Shown here: in pieces, positions 21,295 to 62,002 of the stretch
How the letters are laid out: each line of letters begins with the position of its first letter
Position numbering within the stretch: position 1 is the stretch's first letter
DNA from: Okamejei kenojei
Taxonomy: Eukaryota
Assembly: GCA_035221665.1 (NCBI GenBank)
Contig: CM069160.1
Coordinates: forward strand, 30,566,001 to 30,630,000
Direction of reading: 5' to 3'
Length of the DNA: 64,000 bases
The notes under the pieces: model-generated
Databases searched by the model: none
Seen by the model: the letters and a program-made list of their open reading frames with translations, nothing else
Told to the model about the DNA's origin: nothing
Made by a program: the position numbers and the translations under genes

Positions 21295-21385
21295 GTGAAA
21301 CAGTTCAATTATTTCATTCCAGTGATGAAGGGAAGATGCTGCTGTTGTTGTCTTGTGTTTGTACTTGTTCAAGCAGTTATGATGG
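21295..21385 (+). CDS. Butyrophilin/B7-like gene 1, signal-peptide exon (ATG 21325; MKGRCCCCCLVFVLVQAVMM-G)
   Basis: Acceptor ttctctttgcag|, donor G|gtaagc. The 61 coding nt give phase 1, in frame with the IgV exon at 22910. Hydrophobic core present. Confidence 0.8.
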
Positions 21386-22409
21386 GTAAGCAAATAAATT
21401 GTTAATAGTTCTGTTTAGTTTAGTTTGGAGAAACTGTGCGCTGAGTCCGCACAAATCCCCGCACATTAACACTATCCTACACCCACTAGAGACAGTAATC
21501 TACAAACCTGCACAAGCCGAAGATTTCGGAGAAAACCCACGCAGTTTGCACGGAGAACTCGGTACAGACAGCGCCCATAGTCGGGATCGAACCCGGGTCT
21601 CCGGCGCTGCAAAGCAGCAACTGTACCGCTACGCCAACGTGGCCACCCCAGCAGCACGGAGTAGTGCAGTCGCGTAGTAGTGTTGCCGCCTCACAGCGCC
21701 AGAGACCTGGGTTCGATCCTGACCACGGAGGCGGAGTTTGTACGTTCTCCCCAATACTGTGTGGGTTTTCTGCAGGTGCTCCAGGTTTCCTGACACATTC
21801 TAAAGAGGTGCAGGCGCAAACTCGGTATCGACACCACCCGCAGTTAGGATCGAACCCAGATCTCTGGCGCTCCAAGGCAGCAACAGCCCCACTGTGCCAC
21901 CATGCCGCCCAAAATGCAGAAAAGAGGAACTGCAGATGCTGGTTAATATAAAAAAGGACACTGAGTGCTGGGGTAACTTAACATGTCAGGCAGCATCTCT
22001 AGAGAACTCTAAAAATTGAATTTAGTTTGGTTTAATTTTGAACGGAATTCAAAATTGCCCTTTGGCCCACACTCTCACACTATCCTATACACACCAGGGA
22101 CAATTTACAATGTCACCAAGCCAGCTGACCTACAAACCTGTACATCTTTGCCGTGTGGGAGGAATCCGGAGCTCCCGGAGAAAAACAACACGGTTGCGAG
22201 GAGGAGTTACAAACTCCGTACAGGCAGCACCCGTAGTCAGGATCGAACTCTGGGTTTTTGGCACTGTGCGGCAACAAATCTACCGCTGCGCCATTGTGCC
22301 TGCACCTAAGTACTCTGGTTAATACGGAAGATAGACACAAAATGCTGGAGTAACTCAGCGGGACAGGCAGCATCTCTGGAGAGAAGGAATGTGTGACATT
22401 TCAGGTCAA

Positions 22410-22790
22410 TAGACTGTATGTGCATGAGTAGACCATTCGGCCCTTCGAGCCAGCACCGCCATTCAATGTGATCATGGCTGATCATCCCCAATCAGTACCT
22501 GTTCCTGCCTTCTCCCCATATCTCTTAACTCCACTATCTTTAAGAGCCCTATCTAGCTCTCTTTTGAAAGTATCCAGAGAACCGGCCTCCACCGCCCTCT
22601 GAGGCAGAGAATTCCACAGACTCACAACTCTCTGTGAGAAAAAGTGGTTCCTCATCTCCGTTCTAAATGGCTTACCCCTTATTCTCAAACTGTGTGGCCC
22701 TTGGGTCTGGACTCCCTCAACATCGGGAACGTGTTTCCTGCCTCTAACGTGTCCAAACCTTAATAATCTTATATGTTTCAATAAGATAAT
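22410..22790 (-). mobile_element. CR1 LINE 3' fragment
   Basis: QRVVSLWNSLPQRAVEA and 3'UTR hairpin. Confidence 0.85.
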
Positions 22791-22909
22791 GTTTCTTCTG
22801 ACTCCTTGTTCTCCTGAGACGCTGCCTGTTAATACTGTGTTTTGTGTCTATCTTTGGTGTAAGCCAGTTCCTTCCTACACACTTTGTTTAATATGTTGCC
22901 TTTCGCCAG

Positions 22910-23251
22910 GGGAAGCCAATTATATTTCGCCTGAAAGTCCCTTTTACGGCGTAGTGGGTGGCGATGTCATCTTGGGGTGCTGGTTGAGACCAGTTACAGC
23001 CCTGAAGGAATTGGAGGTGCGATGGTTTAAGTCAACAAAGCTGGTACATTTGTACTCTGGCGGTCAGGATCGACTGGATGTGCAGAACAAGGCTTATCGA
23101 GGGAGGACGGATCTCTTTCCCAAAGAGTTTCACCTCGGAAATGCCTCACTTAAACTGAAGTGGATTAAAGCCTCAGACAATGGCATGTACACCTGTTCCA
23201 CCAGGACCAACACCACCTATCTGCAGATGGGGCTGTATCTGGCCGTTGAAG
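22910..23251 (+). CDS. Butyrophilin/B7-like gene 1, IgV exon 1
   Basis: 342-nt phase 1-1 exon (ccag| ... G|gtgagt): GGDVILGC..LEVRWF..VHLYSGGQD..YRGRTDLF..GNASLKL..SDNGMYTC, a typical BTN/B7 V-set pattern. Confidence 0.93.
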
Positions 23252-23344
23252 GTGAGTCCCACCTGTGGGAAACCATTTTGGGCCTCATACCTGAGGAAAG
23301 GTGTGCTGGTGTTGAACAGGGTCCGGGGGGGTTAACGAGAATGA

Positions 23345-23865
23345 TCTCCTAATTTGAGGAAGGACAGTGCAGCGTAGGTTCACGAGATTGATCCCTGGGA
23401 TGGCGGGACTGTCATATGAGGACAGATTGAAAAGACCAGGCTTGCATTCACTGGAGTTTAGAAGGGTGAGGGGGGATCTTATGGAAACTGAAAAAAATAT
23501 AAAAGGACTGGACAAACTAGGTGCGGGAAAAAATTTCCCAATGTTGAGCGAGTCCAGAACCAGGGGCCACAGTCTGAGAATAAAGGGGAGGTCATTTAAG
23601 ACTGAGGTGAGAAAAAACTTTTTCACCCAGAGAGTTGTGAATTTATGGAATTCCCTGCCACAGAGGGCAGCGGAGGCCAAATCACTGGATGGATTTAAGA
23701 GAGAGTTAGATAGAACTCTAGGGGCTAGTGGAATCAAGGGATATGGGGAGGAGGCAGGCACGGGTTATTGGTAGGGGACGATCAGCCATGATCACAATGA
23801 ATGGCGGTGCTGGCTCGAAGGGCCGAATGGTCTCCTCCTGCACCTATTTTCTATGTTTCTATGTT
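23345..23865 (+). mobile_element. CR1 LINE 3' fragment
   Basis: ORF 23367..23774 followed by a tttctatg tail. Confidence 0.9.
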
Positions 23866-23901
23866 TCAATGATTGGGTTAATGTACGATGAGCGTTTGAC
23901 G

Positions 23902-24345
23902 TAGGGTTGCCAACTTTCTCACTCCCAAATAAGGGACGAAAGTTCAAAATACGGGACAAATTCCCGACAGCAATTTGTTGACCGACTCGGCCGTGGCTGG
24001 GTGAATGATGAGTTGGCCCGGGTGTTGGACTGCACACAAAGCCCAGCCGGCGGGCCAGCTGATAGGTTTTGGCCCAGGCCGCAAGCAAAGTCCGGTACCC
24101 CATCCAACTCATGAACTGATGAGAAGGAGGGGCGGTGGGGATGTCGGCTATAAGCGAAGGTTGGACAGTTGGCCGTGCCGGACCGCCACGGGCGAGGCGC
24201 TGCTGCTGCTGCTGCTGCACTCCATGGGCTGCACTACGTCGTGAGAGGTGAGGCGGGACCGGACGCGGCGCTCCAACCCGACAGTCCCTTCGACCCGAGT
24301 AGTAGCAGTCAAATACGGGACAAGGGCAGTCCCTTACGGGAGTCC
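23902..24345. mobile_element. MITE with TAGGGTTGCCAAC terminus (hAT-Blackjack-like); relatives at about 35277-35843, 60595-61421, 62264-62760
   Basis: Shared termini and subterminal GGGAC/GTCCC motifs across four copies. Confidence 0.7.
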
Positions 24346-24624
24346 AGGGGGGATTTACGAGAATGATCCCCGGAATAATTGTGTTAACGTACGATGAGCG
24401 TTTGATGGCACTGGGCTTCCACTTGCTGGAGTTTCAGAAGGATGAGGGGGTACCTCATTGAAACTTGCCGAACTTACGCTAGCGGGCGAGTCTAGAGCCA
24501 GATGCACAGCGTGAGAATGAAAGGACGTACCTTCAGAAAGTAGAAGAGAAGGAATTTATTTTGTCAGAGGGTGGTGAATCTGTGGAATTGATTGCTACAG
24601 ATGGCTGTGGAGGTCAAGAGAGAG

Positions 24625-25360
24625 TCAATAGACAATAGACAATAGATGCACTGAGTAGGCCATTCGGCCCTTTGAGCCAGCACCACCATTGTGATCATGG
24701 CTGATCATCCACAATCAGTACCCCGTTCTTGCCTTCTTCCATATCCCTTAACTCTGCTATCTATAAAAATCTATCTAGCTCTCTCTTGAAAGCATCCAGA
24801 GAACCAGCCTCCACCCCCCTCTGAGGTAGAGAATTCCACAGACTCAAAACTCTTTGTGTGAAAAAGTGTTTCCTCATCTTTATTCTAAATGGCTTAGACC
24901 TTCTTAAACTGTGTGGCCCCTGGTTCTGGACTCCCCCAACATCGGAAACATGTCTCCTACCTCTAGCATGTCCAAACCCTGAATAATCTTATATGTTTCA
25001 ATAAGATCCCCTCTCATCCTTCTAAACGCCAGAGTATACAAGCCCAGCACATTCTCTCAGCACATGACAGCCTGGCCATCCCAGGAATTAACCATGTAAA
25101 CCTACGCTGCACTCCATCAATAGCAATACTGTCCTACCTCAAATTAGGGGACCAAAACTGCACACAATACTTCAGGTGTGGTCTCATTAGGGCCCAGTAC
25201 AACGGCAGAAGGACCTCTTTGCTCTGCTACTCAACTCCTATTGTTAAGAAGGCCAACATGCCATTCGTTTTCTTCACTGCCTGCTGTACCTGAATGCTTA
25301 CTTTCATTGACTGGTGAACAAGGACCCCCAGATCCTATTGTATTTCCCCTTTTCCCAAGT
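24625..25360 (-). mobile_element. CR1 LINE 3' fragment nested in another CR1 remnant (about 24350-24619, resuming at about 30851-31030)
   Basis: (caataga)n tail on the + strand; the host element is interrupted at ggtcaag and resumes after the DIRS. Confidence 0.8.
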
Positions 25361-25521
25361 TTCAAGAGTCAAGAGTGTTTTTTTTGTCATATTTCACAGA
25401 ACAATTAAATTCTCACTTGCTGCAGCACAACAGAGTATGTGAACAATGTCCACTGTGAACAATAGAATACAAATAACAATATGACAGTTCAGTGTGTGTA
25501 TATATACACATACTCACAAAT

Positions 25522-25717
25522 NNNNNNNNNNNNNNNNNNNNNNNNNNNNNNNNNNNNNNNNNNNNNNNNNNNNNNNNNNNNNNNNNNNNNNNNNNNNNNN
25601 NNNNNNNNNNNNNNNNNNNNNNNNNNNNNNNNNNNNNNNNNNNNNNNNNNNNNNNNNNNNNNNNNNNNNNNNNNNNNNNNNNNNNNNNNNNNNNNNNNNN
25701 NNNNNNNNNNNNNNNNN
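25522..25717. other. Assembly gap (196 N)
   Basis: N run. Confidence 1.
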
Positions 25718-26316
25718 GTCCACTGTGAACAATAGAATAGTAAGATTAAACGAGAACTCACCTGTTCGAAGTTTGATCGTTATTTTACGAGGAGTTACGA
25801 TGAGGGATTACGTGAAGAGCCCGCCTCACGCTGGTAACGGCATACTTCAAAGCAACGGCATGAAAAACACAGAACACCAAAGCCGGAGTAACATAGTAAG
25901 GCTCATAAAAAGACTTAGAACCACCATTTGATCATTTATTTTTACGAGGGTGGGAGTGGAGGGCACGTAATCCCTCATCGTAACTCCTCGTAAAATAACG
26001 ATCAAAACTTCGAACAGGTGAGTTCTCGTTTAATCTTACTATTTTACTTCGGAGTCACGTGAGTGACTACGTGAAGAGTTTTAAAAGCTTTCTGTGTTTT
26101 TTATGTCGTAGAATTAATCCGTACGACAGTCCGGCTAAGTAAACACATACATGAGAAAGCAGACAAATGTTAGATCTTTTCACAATTAAATTTTTTAATG
26201 GTTGAAAGACCATATAATACCCTCCTTATATTTGAGGGAAAAATGATTACAAGTGACAAAAGATATCAGTGACTACACAACTGATTATAGCAATTAATAG
26301 CAAACAAAGCAGGTGA

Positions 26317-27290
26317 TTATAGTGCTCCCAACACCGCATGTCCAAAGCTTGTCATAGTGTGAACAGGTTTGTTGTAGAACTTTGAAAAAGTTTCTTCTTT
26401 ACTCCACCCTGCGATTTTTAAAATATGCTCGAGAGGTACGTCCCGCCCCTTCGCCGCGGACGTAGCTGCCGCCCTGGTGGAGTGAGATTTGAAGACATCA
26501 GTGTCTACTCCCGCTAAAACCAACACCTGTTTCAACCATTTTGAGATAGTTTGAACTGAAGCTTTTGTGTGTGGCTTTTTGTGCGTAAGCAGTAATGTCT
26601 TTTTCGTTTCCTCGAAAAGTGTCCGTAACTTTAATATATTGGTTCAAATGTCTAACCACACACAAAGCAGGCTCAATATGAAAAGCTTGAAAGGTTACCT
26701 TTGTTCCAGATCTCCCTGGTCTACTTTGTTTGATCAGATCGTAAACATAGAATACAACGTTATCTGTAGTCACATGCATACAGTCTAAACGCAACATTTG
26801 TAAAGTTTGCACTCTTTGGGCTGAGACCAGTGACATTAACATGACCAATTTCAATGTTAACCTATCCAATGGCAACCCTTCAATTGGAGTCCATTCTCTA
26901 AGTAGAGCAAGTACAATGCTCACATCCCAAATCTCTGTATATCTAGGTTTTGGCGGATTCATGTGAAAAATTCCTTTCATGAATCGTGATATTAATGGAT
27001 GCGACCCAATTGATTTCTCACCAGTCATAAGTCCTAAATAGGACGACAAGGCACTGCGTGCAGTGTTAATGGCACTGTAACTTAAATGTTGCCCAAAGTG
27101 CAAATTGGCAAGGAATTCCAAAAACATGAGTAACATTCACAGAATCATCAGAAATATTTGACTGTGTGCAAAATTCTTCCCATTTCTTAATATGTGTCAT
27201 ATATTGTTTCTGTGTGCTATCTCGCCATGATGCGCCAATAACTGTCAAAGTTTGGTCCGACAATCCCAGTTCCTGTAGTGGTCTGGTCAA
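26317..27290 (-). CDS. DIRS tyrosine recombinase (frameshifted into three ORF pieces)
   Basis: SAQRVQTL, HSTRAAATS and AGWSKEETFSKFY motifs, plus an N-terminal integrase SAM-like region (STQKQYMTHIKKWEEFC). Confidence 0.9.
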
Positions 27291-29200
27291 AACCTGCAGA
27301 TTAACAAATTCATATATGCATATAATGGGTAACCTTCATTTGTTACTGGATTAGTCAAGATATCACTACAGTTAGGAATTTGGATATACGGTTCTTTAAT
27401 CATATTCAGCATAACTGGGAACCAAGGTTGAGTTGGCCAATTTGGCACTACCAACAATCCGGAAGCTGAATCTTGCTCTATTTTCTTCAAGCATCTCTGG
27501 ATCAGAGCAAATGGTGGAAAAGCATAAAAGAACATTTTTCCCCAGTGTAATGAAAATGCATCTACTGCAACTGCGTCCGGATCGTGTTCCCAAGACACAT
27601 AATGAGGCAATTGATGATTAAGCCTGGATGCAAACAAATCAATTTCTGGCAACCCAAATCGTCTAACAATATTCTTAAATATTGCTGGCTTAAGCATCCA
27701 TTCCGTATTATCTTTAAAAAATCCTGGACCTTTCATCTGCTACCACATTGTCTTTACCTGGAATATAGCTTGCTGAAATCCATATCTGCCGACCAATACA
27801 CCATTGCCATATCTCATTGACCAGACAATCACATGATACTGATCTAACTCCCCCCATGTGATTAATGTAAACCACAGCGTTTTATTGTCTAATTGTATTA
27901 ACACATGCAGACCTTGTTTTAGCACAACAATATGCTTTAAGCCCATAAAAGGCCCCCAATAATTCCAAATAGTTAATACCATACTCTTGGAGAAACACTT
28001 GTTCTTCAGTTTTCCATCTACCTCCACAACTGGAGGATAAATCTGTGGCCCCCCATCCGAGAGCACTAGCATCGTTTGTAAAACCATTTCAGGCTGTTTA
28101 ATCATGATCTTCTTAGCAGCTTGTGGGACATTTTCAACCCACCATTGCAATTCCAATACTGCTTTCCTTGTTAATTGCATAGGCCTGTCAAAGTGACCTG
28201 CCTTATCTTTAAGAGCCCTTACTTTGTCCCTTTGAAGATTTTGATAATGTAATGGCCCAAATTCCACTGCCGGAAATGCTGCCACCAGTGTACCAATGAC
28301 TTTTGCCACTTCTCGGATGGAGGGATAAGGTTTGTGAATGAGGTAATTACACATTTGCAAAATATCATTTGTCTTCTTTGCTGGCAAAGTAACTAACATA
28401 GTCACTGAGTTAATTACAAACCCCAGAAAATCAATTGATGAACTGGCTGCAGCTGGGATTTAATTGGATGAATTAAGAATCCAAGCTCTTTAAACAAAGC
28501 TTTAGTAACTGAAATTGAGTGCTCAGCTGACTCTTGACTATCGTTAATAATCAGAATATCATCCAGATAAGCCATTACAATGTGTTTCTGTGCTCTTAAT
28601 TGAGCTAAAACTGGTTTCAACAGTTTTTGTAAAGAGTCTAGGAGCCGAACTTAATCCATTTGGTAAAGCTTTGAACTGCCATAATTGCCCCTGCCAATAA
28701 AACTTTAAGTATCTCCGAAAAAGATGATGAATTGCTAAGAATAATAGGCGTCTTTCAAATCAATCTTAGCCATATAAGAACCTGCTGAAATCAAATATTT
28801 TGCAGTATTGAATGTCTCCATCTTAAAATGTTTGTATTCTACAAACTTATTTAGATCTGTAAGGTCTAGAATAATTCTACAACCACCATCTTTCTTATCT
28901 CTGCGAAAATATATTAGAGACAAATTGATGCTTATGTTCACAAGTTTTTTTTCAATTACCCCTTTTTCGGATAATTTGTCAATTTCCACATTAATCTCCA
29001 TTCTTTCTTCTGGAGAAAACACATAAGCATAAGCAGGTTTATTCTGTACAGGAGGATTGACCCTTCTTTAAAAATAATAATAGCTCCTGAAACTGCTTGT
29101 AATATAAATCGATCAGAAGTAATATTAAGCCAGGCATTATAAAATTTTTGCAATCTCCCTCCAACTGGAGATTCATCCACAGTTTCTTTAAGGATAGAAG
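27287..29200 (-). CDS. DIRS pol: reverse transcriptase, RNase H and Dam-like methyltransferase domain (frameshifted)
   Basis: PVGGRLQKFYNAW, GGCRIILDL..LNKFV, KIDLKDAYY, AYLDDILI, IDLFASRLNHQL, FYAFPPF. Confidence 0.9.
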
Positions 29201-29203
29201 TCT

Positions 29204-30423
29204 TTAATACCTCTCCATAGGAGCGTGATGGTCTCCTCTTTCCCGAATGCAGGGAAGCAGTGGCCTGTGCAGCACGATAATACTTTCGTGACAAATTTCT
29301 GCCTCTATAACGAAAATCAAAACCCCTTCGGGCCGAAAACCCTTTTCTTTGTCCAGAGACAAAAGGCTTAATAGTGCTAAAATATTTAGCTTCTTCATCC
29401 AACTGTTTCAGTTGTTTCGGCAGATTTTCTCCAAACAAATACCCAGGAGCTTGAACTCCACTTTCTTGACACAGGCTTGCATATCTAGGGTGAAATATGG
29501 GCCGAATCGCCATTTTCCTCATGCAATTTGATCTCATAAAAACGAATTGCACAATAAGCCCAAAGTATCTTTTTGAATCTTGTCCATTTCCAGATTCTCC
29601 ATTTGCCTGCCAAATGCCGTGATGGCAGCCGAAAATAATTTTAGCACCTTTTGAAATTTCACTTCTTGGGCTCTCATACTTGGAGTCATAGACGCCCATA
29701 CCATCGGATTCACCGTAGGCACTTCCAATGAGGCACAATTGCCTGGTGCTTTATATAATTCTGATAATTCATTCATCACAGTATTATGAAGCTGGTGAGA
29801 TACCATATAATTTATATTGGCAGCTAGGCTTTCTTCCATAGCCTCACCACTTCCTTCGGGTATAGCAAAAAACTTGTGCTATCCCAGGCAGATCAAGCCT
29901 TTTCTTTTTACTTTGTGGCGTGCTTTCAAAAGCCATTTCAACTTCAGCAGGGTCTGCTTTCTGCAGCCCTAATTTCCATCGGGATATTATCCCATGAGAC
30001 TTCTTCCAGCCCAAATCGTGGGTCTGGAGTATCATATTCCCAACTTGGCCCACAGCCATATTCATCATAATCAAACCCCTCAGGGATTTTTTGGGATTCA
30101 TGTGGGTACTGTGACCCTTGTCTCATAATAGTTTGGAGAACTTTCTCCATATGCTCCATTTTTAGCCACATAGTTTTATTGTCTGGAGGTCTTTCAAAAT
30201 CAGAATCATCAGAAACCACGGGCCTCACAGTTTTCTTTTTGCATTTCTTAGGAGCATTTTCCTCCGTGGTTATAATTTCCGGAGAATCTGGAAATTCTAT
30301 ATCGGGTAAATTAGTGGCCAGCGGTATCGGAACCGGGTCCACTCTAGCTTCGCGTCCCGTATATTTACTTTCACCCCGGGAGGCTCTCTTCACCCGCGAA
30401 ACCTTCTTTCCCGATTTCTCCAT
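29204..30423 (-). CDS. DIRS gag-like ORF1 (frameshifted)
   Basis: Position upstream of pol; PGNC..LEVPTVNP..W and YLFGENL segments typical of DIRS gag. Confidence 0.7.
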
Positions 30424-30702
30424 TTTTGTAAAAATTTATCTGTGCTCAATCAGCACGTTAACGTCTAAATTTTTACTTTTAGTTTCGATGCTGGAGCCAT
30501 CCAGCGTAACTTCAAAACCGCCCCGATGTAACTTCACTTACCTGCGGGCCGTTCCGACCGCTGCGAGGAGCTGCTCCTTACTGCAGCTCCTCCTTTCGCC
30601 GTCAGCGTCGACGTCATGCCGTTACCAGCGTGAGGCGGGCTCTTCACGTAGTCACTCACGTGACTCCGAAGTAAAATACAAATAACAATATGACAGTTCA
30701 GT

Positions 30703-30744
30703 GTGTGTATATATACACATACTCACAAATACACATATATATAG

Positions 30745-30781
<37 letters not shown>

Positions 30782-30810
30782 ACACACTCACGCACACATA
30801 TGTACACGCA
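30703..30810. repeat. (TA)n/(CA)n microsatellite
   Basis: Seen directly. Confidence 0.9.
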
Positions 30811-31046
30811 AATAAAATACAATAGAGCAATAATAACAATAATAGTCGAAGGTCAAGTCATTGGATATTTATAAGGCAGAGATTGCCAGATTCTTGATTA
30901 GTAAGAGTGCCAGGCGTTATGCGGAGAAGGCAGGAGAATGGAGTTGAGAGGGAGCGATAGATCAGCCGTGATTGAATGGCGGAGTAGACTTGATGGGCCA
31001 GGTGGCTTAATTCTGCTCCTATAAGTTATGAATTTATTAATCCTCA

Positions 31047-31630
31047 AGTCAAGCCAAGTCCACTTTATTTGTCACATTCACATACAAGATGTACAGGGAA
31101 AGTGGCAATGCCTGCGGGATTGTGTAAAAACTACAGAACAGAACAGAATGAGTATTGACATTAAAAAAATAAGACGCAATAGTATTTACTCCTTGGTGAG
31201 ATCAGAGTTTACAGTCCTGATGGCCTGTGGGAAGAAACTCCGTCTCATCCTCTCTGTTTTCACAGCGTGACAGCGGAGGTGTTTGCCTGACCGTAGCAGC
31301 TGGAACAGTCCGTTGCTGGGGGGGGGGGGTAGGGGTCCCCCATAATGTTGCTGGCTGTGGATCTGCACCTCCTGGTGTATAGGTCCTGCAGGGGTGTGAG
31401 TGTAGTTCCCATAGTGTGTTCGGCCGAACGCACTACTCTCTGCAGAGCCTTCCTGTCCTGGGCAGAGCAGTTCCCAAACCAGATTGTGATGTTGCCGGAC
31501 AAGATGCTTTCTACAGCCCCAGAGTAGAAGGACTGAAGGATCCTAAGAGAGACTCTGAATTTCCTCAGCTGCCTGAGGTGGTAAAGGCGCTGCCTTGCCT
31601 TACTCACCAGTATGGCAGCGTGTGATGTCC
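31047..31630 (-). mobile_element. Rex1/Babar-type LINE 3' fragment
   Basis: KARQRLYHLRQLRKF..AVESILSGNITIWFGNC..LQRVVRSAE, RMRRSFFPQAIR; caagt-repeat tail. Confidence 0.85.
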
Positions 31631-31646
31631 CTGTCACTCTGAGTAG

Positions 31647-31928: not shown

Positions 31929-31948
31929 GTACGTCAGTGACTGGAAAT

Positions 31949-33496: not shown

Positions 33497-33555
33497 CTGG
33501 AAATCATTCCACCTTCGGTTGACACAGAATCGCAACACAGAGCAACTGCCTCTCG

Positions 33556-35238: not shown

Positions 35239-35364
35239 GTAAGTCCCACCTGTGGAAAACCTTTTTGGGCCCCATAGGGTCGCCAACTGTCCCGGTTTAG
35301 TCGGGACATCCCATATATTGGGCTAAATTGGTTTGTCCCGTACGGGACCGCCCTTGTCCTGTAC

Positions 35365-41798: not shown

Positions 41799-43455
41799 AA
41801 TAGACAATAGGTGCAGGAGCAGGCCATTCAGCCCTTCAAGCCAGCACCGCCATTCAATGTGATCATGGCTGATCATCCCCAATCAGTACCCCGTTCCTGC
41901 CTTCTCCCCATATCCCCTGACTCCGCTATTTTTAAGAGGTCTTTCTAACTCTCCCTTGAAAGCATAGAGAGGACCGGCCTCCACTGCCATGTGAGGCAGA
42001 GAATTCCGACTAACCATATAACAATTACAGCACAGAAACAGGCCCTCTCGGCCCTTCCAGTCCATGCCGACCATTTGTTTTCCCCTAGTCCCATCTACCT
42101 GCACTCAGACCATACCCCTCCATTCCCTTCACATCCATATACCTATCCACTTTACTTTTAAATGTTAAAATCGATCCTGCCTCCACCACTTCTGCTGGAA
42201 GCTCATTCCACACAGCCACCACCCTCTGAGTAAAGAAGTTCCCCCTCACGTTACCCCTAAACTTCTGTCCCTTAATTCTCATGTCATGCCCTCTTGTTTG
42301 AATCTTCCCTACCCTCAATGGGAGAAGCTTATCCACATCAACTCTGTCTATCCCTTTCATCATTTTAAAGACCTCAATCAAGTCCCCACTTAACCTTCTG
42401 CGCTCCAAAGAATAAAGACCTAACTTGTTCAACCTTTCTCTGTAACATAGTTGCTGGAACCCAGGCAACATTCTAGTAAATCTCCTCTGTACTCTCTCTA
42501 TTTTGTTGACATCCTTCCTATAATTAGGCGACCAAAATTGTACACCATACTCCAGAATTGGTCTTACCAATGCCTTGTACAATTTTAACATTACTTCCCT
42601 ACTCCTATATTCAATGCTCTGATTTATAAAGGCCAGCACACCAAAGGCTTTCTTTACCACCCTATCTACATGCGATTCCACCTTCAGGGAACTATGCACA
42701 ATTATTCCTAGATCCCTCTGTTCCACAGCATTCCTCAATTCCCTACCATTTACCATGTATGTCCTATTTTGATTTGTCCTGCCAAGATGTAGCACTTCAC
42801 ACTTAACAGCATTAAACTCCATCTGCCATCTTTCAGCCCACTTTTCCAAATGGCCCAAATCTCTCTGTCGACTTTGAAAATCTACTTCATTATCCACAAC
42901 ACCACCTATCTTAGTATCATCTGCATACTTACTTATCCAATTTTCCACCCCATCATCCAGATCATTGATGTAATTCCACAGACTCACAACTCTCTGCGTG
43001 AAAAGGTATTTCCTCATCTCCGTTCTTAATGGCTTACCCCTTGTTCCTAAACTGTGGCCCCTGGTTCTGGACTCCCCCAACATCGGGAGCATGTTTCCTG
43101 CCCCTAGTGTGTCCAATCCCTTAATAATCTTATATGTTTCAATAAGAGTCCCTCTCATCCTTCTAAACTCCAGAGTATACAAGCCCAGCCACTCCATTCT
43201 CTCAACATATGATAGACCCGCCATCCCGGGAATTAACCTTGTTGAACCTACCCTGCACTCCCTCAATAGCAAGAATGTCCTTCCTCAAATTTGGAGACCA
43301 AAACTGCACACAATACTCCAGGTGTGGTCTCACTAGGGCCCTGTACACCTGCAGAAGGACCTCTTTGCTCCTATTCTCAACTCCTCTTGTTATGAAGGCC
43401 AACGTGCCATTTGCTTTCTTCACTGCCTGCCGTACCTGAATGCTTACTTTCTGTG
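41799..43455 (-). mobile_element. Nested CR1 LINEs (second subfamily at about 42010-42972 inserted in a first)
   Basis: YADDTKIGG-containing segment interrupts LWNSLP of the host element; aattcc occurs on both sides. Confidence 0.88.
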
Positions 43456-43859
43456 ACGATTCAGGGATGTAGATGTTTAAGAAAGAACTGCAGATGCTGA
43501 AAAAATCAAAGCTAGTCAAAAAATGCTGGAGAAACTCAGCAGGTGAGGCAGCATGTATGGAGGGAAGGAATAGGTGACCTTTATCTGAAGAAGAGTCTAG
43601 CCCCGAAACGTCACCTATTCCTTCGCTCCATAGATGCTGCCTCACCCGCTGAGTTTCTCCAGGGATGTAGATGGGTGTTGGGGACTGCTCTCTAGTTGGT
43701 GAGAGGATGGTTCAGTTGCCTGATAACAGCTGGGAGGAAAACTGTCCCTGAAACTGGAGGTGTGCGTCTTCACGCTTCTTGCCTAATGGGAGAGGGGAGA
43801 AGAGGGAGTGACTGGGGGTGAGACTGGTCCTTGATTATGCTGCTGGCCTTTTCTTTAAA

Positions 43860-44540
43860 GTGTCATAAACAATATTTATAAATAAATGAATTGAATGTGT
43901 CCAAAAAGGAGCAGGAATAAGCCAAAGCTTATTAATTCCCACCCATTATTCAAAAAAAGATAGAAAAAAAATTGAAAAAAAACCCCTCATGTACTATACA
44001 GTATCTCTTAGTCATACCCATCACCCTATAATCACCCTTCCCAATACAATCAGCATAACAAATATGCCACTTACAATCACGTATCCTCATCCCAATATCC
44101 TTTTAAAAAAGTGTTTTTGCACATCTTTTTTAACTGAATTATGTTTGTGCTAAGTTTTATCTCCTGTTCCAGACCATTCCACAAATTCACCCCACAGATT
44201 GCTATGCACATACTTTTTAAGAGTTGTTCTGACATTGAGTTTTTTAAAATTAAGTTCCCCTCTCAAATTATACCTGCCCTGTCTTTCCATAAACAGTTTT
44301 TGTATATTTCCCGGAAGTAAAATGATTTCTTGCTTTGCACATGATTTGTGCAGTCTTAAATTTAACCATATCGGTGAACTTCAGGGTATGTGACTTTAAC
44401 AATAATAAATTGGAATGGTCCATATATCCAACGTTATTGATGATTCTTATGGCTCTTTTTTGTAATGTGCATAATGGCTGTAGGTTGGTTTTGTAAGAGT
44501 TACCCCATATCTCCACACAGTAACTCATATCTGGCAATAT
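43860..44540 (-). mobile_element. L2/Crack-type LINE 3' fragment
   Basis: YCVEIWGNSYKTNLQPLCTLQKRAIRII. Confidence 0.75.
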
Positions 44541-44688
44541 GGCAGATGTGCCTTGCTGAGGCAGTGTGAAGTGCAGATGGAGTCGACGGGAGGGAGGTTG
44601 GTTTGCGTGATGGTCTGGGCTATGACGTGGGATAAATATTCAGAACCATGTATTTTTTCCTTGTTTCGTGCGTGGCTATTCTACACAG

Positions 44689-44757
44689 GTCTGACAGACA
44701 TGAAAGAATATTATCTCCCTCTGCTTTTACTTCCTGGAATTCTGTTTCCAGCAAATG
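44689..44757 (+). CDS. Butyrophilin-like gene 2, signal-peptide exon (ATG 44700; MKEYYLPLLLLPGILFPAN-G)
   Basis: Acceptor ctacacag|, donor G|gtaagc, 58 coding nt (phase 1), hydrophobic core. Confidence 0.85.
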
Positions 44758-46744
44758 GTAAGCAACACTGGCATTTATATTTTTTAATTAATAAATAAAT
44801 AATGTTTGAGAATGTGAACTTATACTTGAGCAGTGAGCTATCAACGGAAGAGCACTTAGAATGTAAAAGCCCTGTCCCACTGTACGAGTTCATTCAAGAG
44901 TTCTCCCCGAGTTTGCCCTGATTCAAACTCGGAAATTTACGGTAATGGCCGCTCGTAAGTACTCGGGGCTCTCGTGGACATTTTTCTTCACGAGAAAAAT
45001 CTTCACGAGTCTTCCCGAGCTTACCTGCCGTTAGCGAATCTTCCCAAGTACCTGCCGTTAGCGTTACGAGCCGCAAAGAGACATCCCCAAGCTCCGACGT
45101 ACCCGCTACGGTCATTCTCCGTGCTTACCGCGAGTTTGATTTGAATTAACTCGTACAGTGGGACAGGCCATACGTTAGCAACGGTACAGGGAAAAACAAC
45201 ATCTGAACAAGTTTTTCAGGTTCAGCAAAGATTCAGAATCTGAAATCTGTTGTGTTGAAGGAATATTTGAATAGTCGAGCAGGTCTCAGATTTCAAGCAA
45301 TACTTTAACAAAATGGCTGCTGTCTGTACGGAGTTTGCACGTTCTCCCTGCAATTGCGTGGGTCTTCATCCGGGTGCTCTGGTTTCCTTCCACTTTCCAA
45401 GGACGTGCGACGCGCGGGTTTGTAGGTTAAGTGGCTTCTGTAAATTGTCCCCACCGTGTAGCATAGAACTAGTGTATGGGGTATTCGCTGGTCAGAGCAG
45501 ACTCGCTGGGGCATAGGGCCTGTTTCCATGATGTATCTCTAAACTAAACTGAACTAAACTAATGCGTCAAAATTATTTAATTATTCACCGTAGTTCCTTG
45601 CAGAATATCTCAACTAAAAACGAACATAAACTTAGAAAGGAGATGAAGGGGAATTTAATTAGTCAGAGGGTGGTGAAACTGTTCTTCTTCTTGCGTTTGA
45701 GGCAGAAGAAGTGGTGAGGCCTTCTGCATTCTGCTTCTTCAGGGTGATGTCATCCGGTTGGACATCCGTAGGAGCCGACCTAAGAAGGGTGCATGCTCTG
45801 GGTTGGCACCAAGCTGCGGTGACTGCGGTTGCATTAGGGCTTCTGCTTCTGCTGCTGTCTCTGTTTGTTGTTAATAGACAATAGAAATATAGAAACATAG
45901 AAATTAGGTGCAGGAGCAGGAGATTCGGCCCTTCGAGCCTGCACCGCCATTAAATATGATCATGGCTGATCATCCAACTCAGTATCCTGTACCTGCCTTC
46001 TCTCCATACCCCCTGATCCCTTTAGCCACAAGGGCCACATCTAACTCCCTCTTAAATATAGCTAATGAATTGGCCTCAACTACCTTCTGTGGCAGAGAAT
46101 TCCAGAGACTCACCACTCTCTGTGTGAGAAATGTTTTCCTCATCTAGGTCCTAAAGGAATTCCCCCTTATCCTTAGACTGTGACCCCTTGTTCTGGACCT
46201 CCCCAACATCGGGAACATTCTTCCTGCATCTCGCCTATCCAACCCTTAAGAATTTTGTACGTTTCAATAAGATCCCCCCTCAGTCTTCTAAATTCAAGCC
46301 GAGTCTATCCAGTCTTTCCTGAAAGTCCTGGCATCCCAGAAATCAATAGGTGTAGGAGTAGGCCATTTGGCCATTGGAGCCTTAAACTGTGGCCCCTGGT
46401 TCTGGACTCCCTCAACATTGGGAATATGTATCCTAACTCTAGCGTGTCCAGACCCTTAATCACGGGTCGCAGTTTCAGAATAAGGGGTAAGCCATTTAGA
46501 ACGAAGACGAGGAAACACTTTTTCACACAGAGAGTGGTGAGTCTGTGGAATTCTCTGCCTCAGAGGGCGGTGGAGGCCGGTTTTTCTGGATACTTTCAAG
46601 AGAAAGCTAGATAGGGCTATTGAAGACAGGGGATATGGGGAGAAGGCACTAACGGGGTACTGATTTGTGGATGATCAGCCATGATCACATTGAATGGCGG
46701 TGCTGGCTCGAAGGGCCGAATGGCCTACTCCTGCACCTATTGTC

Positions 46745-47055
46745 TATTGATGTATGGCGGGGTAGACCCGATGGGCTGAATGGCCTAATTCTGCACCCAT
46801 TATCTATTGTCTATAATGTATGGCGGGGTAGACTCGATGGGCCGAATGGCTTAATTCTGCACCTATTATCTATTGTCTATGATGTATGGCAGGGTAGACT
46901 CGATGGGCTGAATGGCCTAATTCTACATCTATTATCTATTGTCTATGATGTATGGTGGGGTAGACTCGATGGGCTGAATGGCCTAATTCTACATCTATTG
47001 TCTATGATGTATGGCGGGGTAGACTCGATGGGCCGAATGGCCTAATTCTGCTCCT
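46745..47055 (+). repeat. 66-bp minisatellite (about five units) derived from CR1 3' ends
   Basis: TATGG(C/T)(G/A)GGGTAGAC recurs at 46753, 46819, 46885, 46951 and 47010. Confidence 0.9.
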
Positions 47056-47104
47056 GTGACGTGAACATTTCCTGACATTTCGCTTTTTTTAAAACCGTGC
47101 GCAG

Positions 47105-47459
47105 CAGTCAAGTTCACAATCGTTGGCCCAGACCGGCCCGTTTGTAGGAGTCGTGGGCGAAACAGTGACACTGGAATGTCACCTCGAGCCCAAGGAACCG
47201 ATTGACAAGATGACCGTCCCGGTGGCTAAAGTCAGACCTCGACTTTGCGGTTCACATGTTCAGAAACGGCAAGGACGTGACCAATACGCAAGACGATGAT
47301 TACAGAGGGACGGACCGAGCTGTTCAAGGACCAAATGGTGGAAGGAAACGCATCCCTCAGGATAAAGGACATCAAAGTTACCGATGAGGGGAACTATATT
47401 TGCTCAGTTTGACAATGGGGTTGTCTTTGAAGAAACTCCAATTGACTTGAAAGTTGGAG
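47105..47459 (+). CDS. Butyrophilin-like gene 2, IgV exon (four single-base homopolymer insertions)
   Basis: After removing four extra bases: AVKFTIVGPDRPVVGVVGETVTLECHLEPKEPIDKMTVRWLK..VHMFRNGKD..YRGRTELFKDQMVEGNASLRIKDIKVTDEGNYICSV..IDLKVG. Splice sites gcag|(cag) and G|gttagt. Confidence 0.88.
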
Positions 47460-48119
47460 GTTAGTGCACACGTTATTAATAGACAAACATATTACATTGG
47501 TCATTGTCTGACGAATTGATAGTAGACTTTGGGGCAACCCCCCCCCATTCCCTCACCCCATTCACCATCAATAAAACCACATTCATATCTGTGGTGGAGA
47601 AAAATGCTGGAGAAACGCCACGGGTGAGGCAGCATCTACGGAGCGAAGGAATAGTGGGGGGGGGGGGAGGGGGAATTCAAGGGTTACCTGAAAAATCAAT
47701 GTTCAAAATCAACCTGGGTTGTAAGGTGCCCAAGCGAAATATGAGATATTGTTCCTCCAATTTGCATGTGGCCTCACTCTGACAGTGGAGGAGACCCGGG
47801 ACAGAAAGGTCAGTACGGGAATGGGAAGGGGAGTTGAAATGTTTGCCAACCGGCTGATCACAAGGGCTAAGGTGGACTGGGCGTTAAAAAGCGTCAGCGA
47901 AGGAATCTTAGGCAGACATAATTGCTGGAGAAACTCAGCGGGTGAGGCAGCATCAACGGAGCGAAGGAACAGGTGACGTTTCGGGTCGAGTCCCTTCTTC
48001 AGGCATCTCGACCTGAAATGTCGCCTATTCCTTTGCTCCATAGATGCTGCCTCACCTGCTGAGCTTCTCCAGCATTTTATTTCTACCTTCGATTTTTCCA
48101 GCATCTGCAGTTCCTTCTT

Positions 48120-48850
48120 AAACACCATCAACATCACAGTCACATCTGTGGAGTCTTTTAAGTTCCTGGGAACCATCATCTCCGAGGGGTCTTAAATGGG
48201 GGGGGGGGGGGGGGTGGCGGGCGCGGGCGCGGAGGGACACCATCGACTCCACAGTGAAAAAGAAGGCACCGCAGAGGATGTATTCCTGTGGCAGCTGTGG
48301 AAGCACAATCTGCCACAGGGCAATGATGGTCCAATTCTACACGGCCATCGTAGAGTCTGTCCTCAACTTCTCTCGTCAATTGGTCTGGTTTGGCTCAGCA
48401 CCCAGCACGGACATCCGGAGCTGCAGCGAATCGTCCGACCAGCTGCAAAGGTTATTGGCTGCAGCCTTCCCTCCATTGACGAACTGTACACTGCAAGGGC
48501 CAGGAATGCGAGCGGGTAAGATCATCTCTGACCCCTTCTCACCCTGGCCACAAACTCTTTGAATCACTTCCCTCTGGAAGGCGACTCCGGACTGTCAAAG
48601 CTGCCCACAGGCAGACATAAAAACCAGTAGTATCTCTACTCAATAACCAAAAATCTGTAGCCCTCCTTTTTGCTCTAATATTTTATTTAATTCACATGTT
48701 TAATCGATAAGTTTTATTATTAAAGCTAATGTTTTGTGTCATTCCTTACTGTCACTGGTCTTGTCATGTTGTCACTTTTGGGCGGTGCACCAAGGCAAAT
48801 TCCTTGTATGTGAATATGGTTGGCAATTAAACTTATCCATTCATTTCATT
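48120..48850 (+). mobile_element. Rex1/Babar-type LINE 3' fragment
   Basis: FKFLGTII..KKA.QRMY..FYTAIVESVL; (cattc)n-like tail. Confidence 0.8.
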
Positions 48851-50553
48851 AATTCAGTTCTGAAGATGTGTCCCGACCCGTAATGTCACCTAGATTAGTT
48901 TTATATCATTGTCACATGGCTGAGGTACAGTGAAAACGCACTTATGCTATAAAGCAAGTAAAGGACTACTGAAAACAATCAAGCTGTCCACTGCGGCAAG
49001 ATAAATGATTCATAAGAGTAGATTATTAAGTCCAAATAAAGTCTCAGTAAAGGAAAGTTCATATCGGACTTCATGAAAGAATGGGGTTGACTGGGCTTGT
49101 AATCACTGGAATCTTTGAGGCGTGAGGGCTCTTATAGAATCATTCACAGTCTTAAACGATTTGGGACGTGCAGGTACAGTAGGCAGTGATGAAGAAACCC
49201 GAAATGGCATGTTGGTCTTCATAACAAGAGGAGTAGAGTATAGGAGCAAAGAGGTTCCTTCTGCAGTTGTACATAGCCCTAGTGAGACCGCACCTTGGGT
49301 ATTGTGTGCAAATTAGGGTCTCCTAATTTGAGGAAGGCATTTATTGCTATTGAGGGAGTTGAGTATAGGAATTAATCAGGTTCACCTGGTTAATTTTCCG
49401 GAATGGCGGGACTCGACATATGATTGAAATAAGGTCGACTGGGCTTGTATCACTGGAATTTAGAAGGATGAGGGGGGAATCTTATAGAAGTATATCAGTT
49501 CTTCAAGGATTGGACGGGCTAGATGTTGGGGGAGTCAGAACAGGGGTTCACAGTTCAGGAAACAAGGGGTAGGCAAGCCATTTAGGACTGTGATGAGTAA
49601 AAACTTTTGTCACCCAGAGAATTGTGAATCTGTGGAATTCTCTAGCCTCAGAAGCATTGGGAGCCTTTCTCTGAATGCTTTCCAAGAGAAATTTCGATAG
49701 AGCTTTAAAGATGGCGGGATCACTTAGACAATAGGTGCAGGAGGTCGGCATTCGACACTCAGCCAGCACCACCATACATAGAATCATAGAAAAATAGGTG
49801 CAGGGAGTAGGCCATTCGAGCCTTGCCACCGCCATTTCAATATGGATCATGGATGATCCATTCCAAACTCAGTATCCTGTACCTGCCTTCTCTCCCATAC
49901 CCCCTGATCCCTTAGCCACAAGGGCCACATCTAACTCCCTTTAAATATAGTCAATGAACTCGGCCTCAACTACCTTCTGTGGCAGAGAATTCCGACTCTA
50001 CCACTGCTGTGTGTGAAAATCTTTTTCTCATCTCTGCCCTAAAAGACTTCACCTTAGCCTTATACTGTGACCCCTTGGTTCTGGAGTTCCCCAACATCGG
50101 GAACATCTTCCTGCATCTAGCCTGTCACAAACCCTTAGAAATTTTGTAAGTCTCTATAAGATCCCCCCTCATCTTCTAAATTCCTGCGATCACTGTGGTA
50201 GTGGCTGATCAATCCACAAGCAGTACCCCGTTCCTGCCTTTCTCCCCGTACCCCTGACTCCGCTATCTTTATGACCCTATCTAATATATTGGGATCACTC
50301 CCATTTCTCCCTAGTTATGGGATATGGGGAGAAGGCAGGAACGGTGGGGTACTGATATGGTGGATGAACTGCCATGATCACAGTGAAATGGCGGTGATGG
50401 TTCGAATTAGGGCCGAATGGCCTACTACTGCAACTAGTGTCTATTGTACTGCCGATGGGCCCCAAATATCCTAAACCTGCTCCTATGAATTTATGAACTT
50501 ATGAACTTGTTGCTAAATTCTATGTTATACTTGAATCCTTGTTAATCTTATAG

Positions 50554-50854
50554 GTTTGGGTTCATGACCACTGGATCTACATACAGAGGCGATATGAGGA
50601 AAAGTGGAATTCAGATTGGTCTGTGAGTCTAATGGCTGGTATCACGCTCCATCGATACATGGGATTTCGTGGCGAGAAAGGAGAAAGAGAATTTAACTTT
50701 TAAAATGCTGATATAAATTACAGCAGGATTCGAAACAACTTATTATGCCAGAGCAAAGTAACTTGTATCACAAGGTTTCGACAAACAAGGTTCAGCTGTA
50801 TTTTATTGGAATCGAGTATTGGCGGATAGAACAGGAGCCTTATTGAGATCGCAG
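50554..50854 (+). CDS. Butyrophilin-like gene 2, IgC exon (indel-degraded)
   Basis: tag|GT TTG GG.. start, recognisable SGIQ-LVCESNGWY segment, end IEIA G|gtttgt; multiple indels. Confidence 0.7.
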
Positions 50855-50869
50855 GTTTGTATATTGTCA

Positions 50870-51420
50870 ATATCTTTCCAGGTGAGCAGAGGTTTCAACG
50901 GCACCTCCTTCAACTCCTCATCTACTGCATCCATGCTCTAGGTGTCACCTTCTCTACATCGGTGAGGACTAAGCGCAGGTCGGCGAACGCTCCCTCGCCC
51001 AACACCTCCGCTCAGGTCTGTACAGACCATCCTGAGCTCCCCAGGTGGCCCCCGCAGAACTTAAACTCCCCCTCCATACCCAATCTGACCTTTTGTCCTG
51101 GGCCTTCCTCCATTGGACAGAGGTGAGCCCAGCGCAAATTGGAGGGGCAGTACCTCTATTACGCTTGGGTAGTTTACACCCCAGTGGGTATGGAGCATTG
51201 AAATTCTCTAATTTCAGGTAGTCCTGGCTTTCTCCCTCCTTTCCCTCACCTTCCCAGCTCTCCCTCATAGACTTTACTGTCTCCGCCTCTTCATTTCCTT
51301 TCCCCCCCTCCCACCCACTCAGTCCTGATGTTGGGTCTCGACCCTAACGTCACCTACTACTTTTCTCCATAGATGCGCCCTCACCCGTGAGTTTCTACAG
51401 CATTTTTATCTCTATTGTAT
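50870..51420 (+). mobile_element. Penelope 3' remnant (error-rich)
   Basis: Recognisable degraded GIY-YIG coding sequence and terminal repeat. Confidence 0.7.
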
Positions 51421-52849
51421 ATTGTCAACTGCAGTTTAAAATAGGTTGACTTGCAGATGTAAATTCCGGCACATGTCAGATGAGAGGAATAATAAAAATA
51501 ATATAATATCGAGGTAATAGAACTAGACAATAGGTTCAGGAGGAAGCATTCGGCCTTCCAGCCAGCTCCGTCATTCTTTGTGGTATGGCTGTGCATCCAC
51601 AATCAGTAACCAGTGCCTGCCTTCTCCCCATATCCCTTGCATTCCAATAGTCCCTAAAGCTTGTGTCTAACTCGCTCTTTTAATTTATCTAGCTGAATTG
51701 GCACTCCACTGCCTTTGGGCATGGTTTCCACAAATGCACAAACTCTCTGGGTGAAACGTTTTTTCTCATCTCAGATTTAACTGGCATCCTCCTTTTCATT
51801 CTTAGACTGTGGCCCTGGTTCTGGACTCCCCCATCATTGGGAACCCTTTTCCTGCAACTAGTTTGTTCCAAGTCCCTTTTATAATTTTTATACCCATAAT
51901 AATCTTATATGTTTCCATAAGATCCCCTTCTCATTCTTCTAAAACTCCAGTGAATACAAAAAGGGGGCCCAGTCTTTCAATCTTTATTCATTTTGACAGT
52001 CCCGCTTAATCTCGTGAACCCTACGCTGCCCACTCCTCAATTGGGGCCCCCAAGGATGTCCTTCCTGAATCTCCGAGAGGCCACCTGGCGAAACAATCTT
52101 GGTTGTGCCTGGATGAGTTTTAGAGATACAGCGGCGGAAAACTAGCCCTATCGAGCTACCGAGCCCACACCAACCAGCAATCACCTCGTACAATAGCGAT
52201 TTCCTACACACCAGGCACCAATCATACAGAAGCAATTAACCTACGAGCACTGAACGTCTTTTGATGTGTGGGATGAATCCGGAGAAAAACCCACCTGGTC
52301 ACAGGGAGAGAGAAACCATGCAAAACTCATACAGATTAGCACACGTACATCCAGGGATCGAACCCAGTCTCTGGTGCCAGTAAGGGGTAGCAACTCTCCA
52401 CTGCACCAAGGAAGTTGGGTCTTGATTTGGAAAAGTCACATATTCATTATCTCCAGTGATGCTGCCTGGAGACCTTCTGAGTTAGTCCACAATTTTACGC
52501 CTATGAATATTAACGATGTTTTTCTTTCAGTAAATGTGCAAAAGGATTGATTTGTGATGGGAAAACAATTTCTTCTGTTCAGAGGGTGATGAATCTGTGG
52601 AATTCATTGCACCAGATGGCTGTAGAGGCCAAAGTTAATTTGATATTTTTAAGATGGGTATTGGCAGTACGGGTGTTATGGGATCAAGGCAGGTGATTGG
52701 GGTTGAGAAGGGAACGAATAGATCAGGGCATGATTGGCATGGTGAGTTGACCAGAGGGGCTGGAATGGCCTAATTTCTGCCCCTAGGAACTTATGAAATG
52801 AAATATTTTCCACGCAACATTGTCTAAATCACTGACATTTCTATTGCAG

Positions 52850-52971
52850 ATATCTTCTTCCCAGTTGTATTCAGGATGGCTGGTGTTATTATCCTGGTCT
52901 TTGTCATTTGTTTGTAATCGCGCTTGGTTTAGCCATTTTTTGGACTCTGTAAGAAGACGTATCACATGAAG
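52850..52971 (+). CDS. Butyrophilin-like gene 2, transmembrane exon (indel-degraded)
   Basis: ttgcag|AT ATC TTC TTC CCA gives DIFFPVV-SGWLVL..FVIALGLAIFW plus basic residues, then G|gtacgt. Resembles the BTN juxtamembrane FFP..W motif. Confidence 0.7.

Positions 52972-61967: not shown

Positions 61968-62002
<35 letters not shown>

What the first reader, a model, noticed from the sequence alone, without database searches (positions are those of the whole stretch)
21295..52971. Butyrophilin-like locus with a recently doubled V-C-V-C gene lacking its own TM exon: secreted 4-Ig form or read-through 6-Ig receptor
Seen: SP-V1-C1-V2-C2 exons, all phase 1. V1/V2 and C1/C2 are close paralogues that also share flanking intron sequence (tgtttaatatgttgcctttc.ccag; gt.agtcccacctgtgg), so the V-C module was duplicated in this lineage. 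Between 36698 and the next gene (~40000) I find only repeats and no hydrophobic exon. Known: V-C-V-C occurs in mammalian BTNL2 and 4Ig B7-H3, and BTNs regulate gamma-delta T cells. Inference: this is an independent origin of the architecture. The product is either a soluble 4-Ig BTN-like protein or, because the phases are compatible, C2 splices to gene 2's V exon (47105) to give V-C-V-C-V-C-TM.
Basis: partly seen in the sequence, partly recalled or inferred. Interest (0 to 1): 0.8.

Follow-up and report, generated by a model that had tools for sequence, protein, structure and literature searches.

The report
Skate fused long-and-short butyrophilin gene
In skates, a doubled immune-receptor module with no membrane anchor of its own is joined to the neighbouring butyrophilin gene in sequence contigs of two related species, so this locus likely makes both a normal short receptor and an unusually long hybrid one.

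Summary
The SP-V1-C1-V2-C2 exons are real and all phase 1, and no family TM exon follows them. The read-through option is the supported one. Contigs from two other organisms join C2 directly and in frame to the downstream gene's V3 exon. The little-skate RefSeq locus has a long isoform, SP-V1-V2-C2-V3-C3-TM-B30.2 (801 aa, five Ig, no C1), and a short SP-V3-C3-TM-B30.2 isoform.

Trees put V1/V2/C1/C2 and V3/C3 in two old elasmobranch BTN subfamilies. The long form is therefore a chimera of neighbouring genes and is independent of BTNL2.

Corrections: the doubling is shared with Amblyraja and Leucoraja, so it is not specific to this species. The window's V2 carries a one-base frameshift that is probably an assembly error. 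The window contig is probably an unpurged haplotig of an inverted copy about 110 kb upstream. Whether C1 is included (five or six Ig) is open, and the junction is not shown in this species.

The parts
21295..21385 (+). Leader exon of the long isoform (ATG at 21325, phase 1); needs an upstream non-coding exon, not located
   Evidence: matches the N-termini of P0002 and P0129
22910..23251 (+). IgV exon V1 (BTN subfamily A)
   Evidence: 84/113 aa identical to both the Amblyraja and the Leucoraja V1
25740..30675 (-). DIRS-like retrotransposon in the V1-C1 intron, absent from the inverted twin (approximate ends)
   Evidence: (tyrosine-recombinase hit below cut-off)
31647..31928 (+). IgC exon C1; open in the window, broken by a -1/+1 indel pair in the twin, absent from the Leucoraja long isoform, present in the Amblyraja model
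34896..35238 (+). IgV exon V2; extra G at 34942 in the window, probably an assembly error
   Evidence: (X1 contig 34824-35326: 0 other letters, 1 gap)
36414..36698 (+). IgC exon C2; its donor is joined to V3 in contigs of two other organisms
40180..40480 (+). GC-rich stretch, likely the promoter or first exon of the short isoform (inferred); 40230-40306 is conserved with Amblyraja
   Evidence: (P0002 tail matches here)
44689..44757 (+). Leader exon SP3 of the short isoform (69 nt), skipped in the long isoform
   Evidence: P0122, P0130 and P0131-cluster proteins; X7/X16 contigs have 70 nt upstream of V3
47105..47459 (+). IgV exon V3 (BTN subfamily B), shared by both isoforms; 4 extra bases in the window, open in the twin
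   Evidence: (X1 contig: 4 gaps)
50554..50854 (+). IgC exon C3, indel-rich in the window, open in the twin
52850..52971 (+). TM exon, indel-rich in the window, open in the twin. Cytoplasmic exons and B30.2 lie outside the window, in the twin only (C30:30445408-30435069, minus strand)
3053..54280 (.). Stretch between two 500-N runs that duplicates C30:30450426-30488634 in inverted orientation; probable unpurged haplotig

Best explanation
The V-C-V-C exons are likely the front half of a long isoform of a fused, two-leader butyrophilin locus: C2 is joined in frame to the downstream V3 exon in contigs of two related species, and it likely does the same here, giving a membrane receptor of five or six Ig domains with a B30.2 tail. 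An upstream promoter would give SP1-V1-(C1)-V2-C2-V3-C3-TM-B30.2, skipping the SP3 leader. A downstream promoter would give the ordinary SP3-V3-C3-TM-B30.2. Inferred history: two neighbouring complete BTN genes of different old subfamilies; in a skate ancestor the upstream gene doubled its V-C module, lost its TM and B30.2 exons, and was captured by the downstream gene because all exons are phase 1. Inferred function: by analogy with mammalian BTNs, the distal V1/V2 would offer a new, fast-evolving binding surface (T-cell receptor or another ligand) on the conserved signalling tail of gene 2.
For: (1): 2 of 4 runs laid on C2 (X8 organism B, X12 organism C, two studies) each hold a contig covering 36412-36698 with 29 or 30 other letters and no gaps. 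Both run on for 32 letters; the 30 shown match the V3 start at 26 of 30 (compared by eye) and stay in frame. Depths 7.0 and 14.9. (2): Leucoraja XP_055521749.1 (X1, 801 aa, V-V-C-V-C-TM-SPRY) and XP_055521750.1 (X2, 479 aa). (3) No own TM exon; the Amblyraja model also lacks one and ends in sequence matching 40230-40306. (4) Short isoform: 4 Logan proteins of 479 aa besides P0122 in cluster 1; X7 and X16 contigs cover V3 with 70 nt upstream, fitting SP3 by length. (5) Trees: V1+V2 form a skate clade (100/99) inside subfamily A; V3/C3 lie in subfamily B; one clade is rejected, p-AU 1.4e-4. (6) V1, V2 and C2 are open here (V2 in the twin) and in Leucoraja; simulated neutral survival of all three is 0.0001-0.13 depending on assumed divergence and indel rate. 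dN/dS against a paralogue is 0.44 for V2 (p 0.001) and 0.48-0.52 for C2 (p 0.02-0.03).
Against: The junction is shown only in other organisms. X8 and X12 are not on record as RNA, are assembled contigs, and bridge by 32 letters, just over the tool's 31-letter rule; a contig across two genes does not show a single transcript. Either may be the species behind the RefSeq model, so the lines may not be independent. RefSeq models are predictions and disagree: Amblyraja has V1-C1-V2 with no C2 and no fusion, Leucoraja has no C1. What lies upstream of V2 in the X8/X12 contigs was not seen. dN/dS is 1.06 for C1 vs C2 and 0.68 (p 0.25) for V1 vs V2, so relaxation is not excluded. Each assembled copy here has one broken Ig exon in the cassette. 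No function was tested.
Confidence: 0.75

Rival explanations
1. The main product is a secreted V-C-V-C protein: C2 reads on into its intron, adds 26 residues, stops at 36778 and is polyadenylated nearby.
For: Open frame past the C2 donor to 36778; AATAAA at 37806; the Amblyraja model also has no TM. Soluble B7-family forms are known (PMC3172298, abstract).
Against: Both C2-type contigs found in relatives continue into V3, not into intron. The Leucoraja long isoform is membrane-bound. The 37232 candidate exon is repeated sequence. A minor soluble form beside the long one is not excluded.
Confidence: 0.1
2. In this species the upstream cassette is decaying; only the short gene is functional and any read-through is noise.
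For: Frameshifts in window V2 and twin C1; a polymorphic 5-kb insertion in the V1-C1 intron; C1-C2 dN/dS 1.06; the distal domains diverge 21-33% from orthologues against 4-10% for V3/C3; homology at the C1 acceptor reaches only about 22 nt upstream, where a LINE-like ORF begins.
Against: A short-read-type contig over V2 differs from the window by one gap only, which fits removal of the extra G. All four Ig exons keep both cysteines and their splice sites. Neutral survival of V1+V2+C2 is unlikely. The junction is kept in two other organisms.
Confidence: 0.12
3. Separate question: the window holds a true second, inverted gene copy (segmental duplicate) rather than a duplicate haplotype.
For: It is assembled about 110 kb from the twin and differs by a 5-kb insertion, by tandem-unit number (4 vs 2) and by up to 46 mismatches per 2 kb in the repeat-rich 14-20 kb part.
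Against: The duplicated stretch fills the space between two 500-N runs almost exactly; 34-48 kb differs by only 0-6 mismatches per 2 kb; the end is indel-rich; and the flanks on either side overlap each other by about 19-26 kb with indel-rich identity. The window copy stops before the cytoplasmic and B30.2 exons.
Confidence: 0.2

Closest known systems
Leucoraja erinacea RefSeq XP_055521749.1 / XP_055521750.1 ('butyrophilin-like protein 2' X1 and X2)
   Same: Orthologous locus; long fused and short isoforms; V1, V2, C2, V3, C3 are one-to-one orthologues
   Different: Its long model has no C1 (five Ig). It is an automatic annotation; I found no paper on it
Canonical butyrophilins (IgV-IgC-TM-B30.2)
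   Same: [quoted passage not shown]
   Different: Five or six Ig domains from two subfamilies on one TM-B30.2, plus a two-leader locus
Mammalian BTNL2
   Same: V-C-V-C tandem (PMC6017450, passages)
   Different: Independent origin; BTNL2 lacks B30.2 (same paper) and its V pair is 43% identical against 71% here
4Ig B7-H3
   Same: Tandem V-C exon duplication giving long and short ectodomain isoforms (PMC3172298, abstract)
   Different: B7-H3 duplicates within one gene; here the extra domains come from a neighbouring gene of another subfamily. No B7-H3 sequence was in my trees
Human BTNL8*3
   Same: Chimera of adjacent BTN-family genes: one gene's ectodomain on the other's B30.2 (PMC3729544, abstract and section 8)
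   Different: That is a polymorphic deletion that swaps parts and keeps two Ig domains; here ectodomains are stacked by splicing, the downstream gene stays intact, and the arrangement is shared across skate genera

Membership tests
Butyrophilin (BTN/BTNL) | IgV plus BTN-type IgC ectodomain | tested here: met
   PF07686 and PF22705 over cut-off for V1, C1, V2, C2
Butyrophilin (BTN/BTNL) | Single TM followed by B30.2/SPRY | tested here: met
   Supplied by gene 2: TM, three short cytoplasmic exon hits and B30.2 in the twin; SPRY in P0129. For the cassette it depends on the C2-V3 splice, seen only in relatives
Butyrophilin (BTN/BTNL) | Domains group with BTN-annotated proteins | tested here: met
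   Nested among shark and ray proteins named butyrophilin-like; no non-BTN B7 outgroup was included
Butyrophilin (BTN/BTNL) | Linkage to the MHC chromosome | tested here: met
   15 of 15 MHC_I matches are on C30, at 1.5-8.5 Mb, over 20 Mb away
Butyrophilin (BTN/BTNL) | Regulation of gamma-delta T cells or TCR binding | not testable with these tools
   Analogy only (PMC6868513, start of abstract)
BTNL2 orthologue | V1 shares descent with BTNL2 V1 | tested here: not met
   AU test rejects, p = 1.0e-5
BTNL2 orthologue | No B30.2 tail | tested here: not met
   The long isoform of the orthologous locus ends in SPRY
4Ig B7-H3 (CD276) | Orthology to CD276 | not tested
   No CD276 or HHLA2 sequence was returned by name for use in the trees; best named hits are all butyrophilin-like

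The most novel reading that the evidence does not exclude
Skates have hard-wired a butyrophilin heteromer into one chain: fast-evolving subfamily-A V domains (74-79% identical between genera) ride on the conserved subfamily-B V-C-TM-B30.2 (90-96%), and promoter choice plus C1 skipping switches the receptor between two, five and six Ig domains to set which T-cell receptor or ligand it meets and at what distance.
Probability: 0.25. Interest if true: 0.72.

Novelty: new variant of a known kind. Interest (0 to 1): 0.5.

Why it matters
Butyrophilins outside mammals are almost unstudied (PMC12841164). This locus shows a receptor being built by gene capture: a tail-less BTN cassette borrows its neighbour's membrane anchor and B30.2 domain while the neighbour stays intact. 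It gives a natural long/short pair with the same signalling tail, and rapidly changing distal V domains that are good candidates for testing BTN ligands, including gamma-delta TCRs, in cartilaginous fish. It is a variant architecture in a known family and is already present as an automatic little-skate gene model, which limits surprise.

Tried and rejected
No RNA holder was listed for V2; this says nothing on expression. Organism-A runs gave no cover of the cassette: X7 and X16 had depth 0 at 36604, and X17 and X18 held only a C contig whose downstream letters match the 34.6-34.7 Mb paralogue type. These blanks are not evidence either way. One search was flooded by repeats, so its joint tables were cut and C1 could not be judged; whether the twin's C1 indels are real stays open.

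A hydrophobic frame at 45706-45885 was rejected as a TM exon: it is a dispersed repeat (40 of 40 scored candidates matched, 296 found). A second hit at 42465 lies in LINE sequence.

Read depth could not settle haplotig versus duplicate because no single-copy control was laid. The first non-coding exon of the long isoform was not found; a locus-specific 3.4-kb tandem unit upstream is only a candidate.

The AlphaFold model of P0129 (mean pLDDT 72.7, pTM 0.34, 15 sequences) shows beta-strand domains, a TM helix and a beta tail but no reliable domain packing; no fold search was run.

Tree rows dropped: arowana P0012, Mobula P0150, Hypanus P0117 and Stegostoma P0071 from both trees, plus P0001 V2 and P0005 V1 from the V tree; the AU tests used 27 of the 55 V rows. 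The search of earlier findings returned nothing. Literature searches listed no paper on skate butyrophilin isoforms; subscription journals are not covered and no supplements were read, so a description there could be missed.
Full report
What is in the window. The sequence is from a cartilaginous fish, most likely a skate, judged by its closest proteins. It lies at G000:C30:30566001-30630000. Pfam gives V-set for V1/V2 and the BTN-type C2-set_3 for C1/C2. V1/V2 and C1/C2 are about 82% identical in DNA, with shared intron flanks. Downstream is a second unit with its own leader (44689-44757), V3, C3 and TM.

No TM exon of its own. tblastn with TM segments of two family members found TM exons after four paralogous C exons and the twin's gene-2 TM, but nothing between C2 and gene 2. 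A paralogue's TM exon found no remnant at DNA level. A hydropathy scan of every YAG acceptor from 36699 to 47100 gave three hits; two are one dispersed repeat and one is LINE sequence.

Assembly state. The stretch between the 500-N runs (3053-54280) has an inverted twin at C30:30450426-30488634, 96.7-97.9% identical. From 34 to 48 kb the two differ by 0-6 mismatches per 2 kb; past 48 kb the differences become indel-rich, and there only the twin keeps open frames. The sequences flanking this stretch overlap each other by about 19-26 kb. I read it as an unpurged haplotype placed between overlapping contigs (about 0.8); the N runs cannot be proven to be gaps. The window's V2 has an extra G at 34942. 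Between 34780 and 35340 the window and twin differ only by that base and one substitution, and a contig of run X1 over 34824-35326 has no other letters and one gap, so the frameshift is probably an error; the gap's place was not printed, and X1 may not be independent of the assembly. The twin's C1 has a -1/+1 indel pair with stops between, status unknown. The cytoplasmic exons and B30.2 of gene 2 exist only in the twin.

What follows C2. Laying four runs on C2 alone at 80% likeness gave, in X8 (organism B) and X12 (organism C), contigs of 874 and 947 nt that span the exon with 29 and 30 other letters and no gaps. That is C2 length; C1 is 3 nt shorter. Both continue at exactly 36698 for 32 letters, and the 30 shown match the start of V3 (47105) at 26 positions, in frame. 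This skips 10.4 kb including the SP3 leader, which points to spliced RNA although the runs are not on record as RNA. The other two runs held only a paralogue. Independently of my laying, the Leucoraja RefSeq locus has isoform X1 (801 aa: SP1-V1-V2-C2-V3-C3-TM-B30.2) and X2 (479 aa: SP3-V3-C3-TM-B30.2). The short form is also seen as Logan proteins, and organism-A contigs X7 and X16 cover V3 exon-to-exon with 70 nt upstream, fitting SP3 by length. The Amblyraja model has V1-C1-V2 and then runs into sequence matching 40230-40306, with no TM. So C1 is in one model and out of the other; five or six Ig is open.

Origin. In domain trees V1 and V2 form a skate clade (100/99) in which V1s and V2s sort by position across this species, Amblyraja and Leucoraja. 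C1 pairs with the Amblyraja C (93/55, weak) and C2 with the Leucoraja C (95/87). The doubling therefore predates these genera and postdates the sampled Narcine and Pristis sequences. V3/C3 belong to a different subfamily that has shark members; forcing V1/V2 with V3 is rejected (p-AU 1.4e-4), as is grouping V1 with BTNL2 V1 (1.0e-5). The long form is thus a chimera of two neighbouring BTN genes. The order of events (doubling, tail loss, capture) is inferred.

Selection. Distal domains change fast: V1 84/113, V2 89/112, C2 73/94 and C1 62/93 identical to orthologues, against V3 110/115 and C3 85-86/94. dN/dS against a 34.6-Mb paralogue is 0.65 for V1 (p 0.08), 0.44 for V2 (p 0.001), 0.46-0.61 for C1 (p 0.01-0.10) and 0.48-0.52 for C2 (p 0.02-0.03). 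Within the pair it is 0.68 (V, p 0.25) and 1.06 (C). Simulated neutral survival of V1+V2+C2 is 0.0001-0.13 over the four settings tried. This favours a maintained but fast-evolving cassette and cannot separate positive selection from relaxation.

How it likely works. Shown: exon anatomy, absence of an own TM, the C2-V3 join in two other organisms, the two RefSeq isoforms, the two-subfamily ancestry. Inferred: two promoters, the same splice in this species, surface expression. By analogy: mammalian BTN IgV domains bind gamma-delta TCRs directly (PMC6868513, start of abstract) and B30.2 senses intracellular ligands (PMC12841164, introduction), so the long form would couple a new distal binding face to gene 2's tail. 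Ligands other than TCRs are possible (same paper).

How unusual. Among the 302 proteins held at that point, 121 had a B30.2 match and 14 of these had three or more Ig domains before it; by my own profiles three had four or more (P0001 VVVC, P0235 VVVVC, P0129 VVCVC). All are predictions and the set is a search result, not a census. Extra V domains are therefore recurrent in fish BTN models, including a second V-(broken C)-V-C gene in this genome. What stands out here is the inter-subfamily fusion with a retained short isoform. The closest described cases are BTNL2 (PMC6017450, passages), 4Ig B7-H3 (PMC3172298, abstract) and BTNL8*3 (PMC3729544, abstract and one section). I recall, from no call, that some mouse Btnl genes were reported with four Ig domains; passages of PMC4539525 did not address this. 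Five searches listed no paper on this locus.

Verdict. A real feature; a new variant of a known family; already visible as an automatic gene model in a relative. Interest 0.5.

Noticed in passing
window 25740-30675 (-): DIRS-like retrotransposon with internal inverted and complementary repeats, inserted in a short tandem repeat of the V1-C1 intron and absent from the twin, so likely polymorphic.
   Followed up: partly
G000:C30:34567821-34600754 (L014-L017, L033): A paralogue with leader, V, a C exon truncated after about 96 nt, V, C, TM and a downstream B30.2: a second, separate V-C doubling in which the first C is broken.
   Followed up: partly
window 5200-20000: A 3.4-kb tandem unit with a locus-specific core, 4 copies here and 2 in the twin; may hold the long isoform's first exon or promoter.
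   Followed up: partly
window 54781-64000 and L008-L009 against C30:30542400-30568533: Indel-rich direct overlap of 19-26 kb between the sequences flanking the window's main stretch, a likely false duplication in the assembly.
   Followed up: yes
G000:C30:30648767-30661274 (L009-L011): A complete V-C-TM-B30.2 butyrophilin of a third lineage (groups with Narcine P0004) just beyond the window.
   Followed up: partly
G000:C30:1.5-8.5 Mb and 32.3-34.9 Mb: All 15 MHC class I matches and a large BTN-like V/C exon cluster lie on the same contig as the window.
   Followed up: no
window 44689-44757: The SP3 leader exon is 69 nt and open in the C2 frame, so a C2-SP3-V3 splice would also stay in frame and put a hydrophobic stretch mid-protein; not seen in any contig.
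   Followed up: no
P0123 (Amblyraja gene 2, isoform X2): A model that skips the TM exon, giving V-C-B30.2 without an anchor.
   Followed up: no
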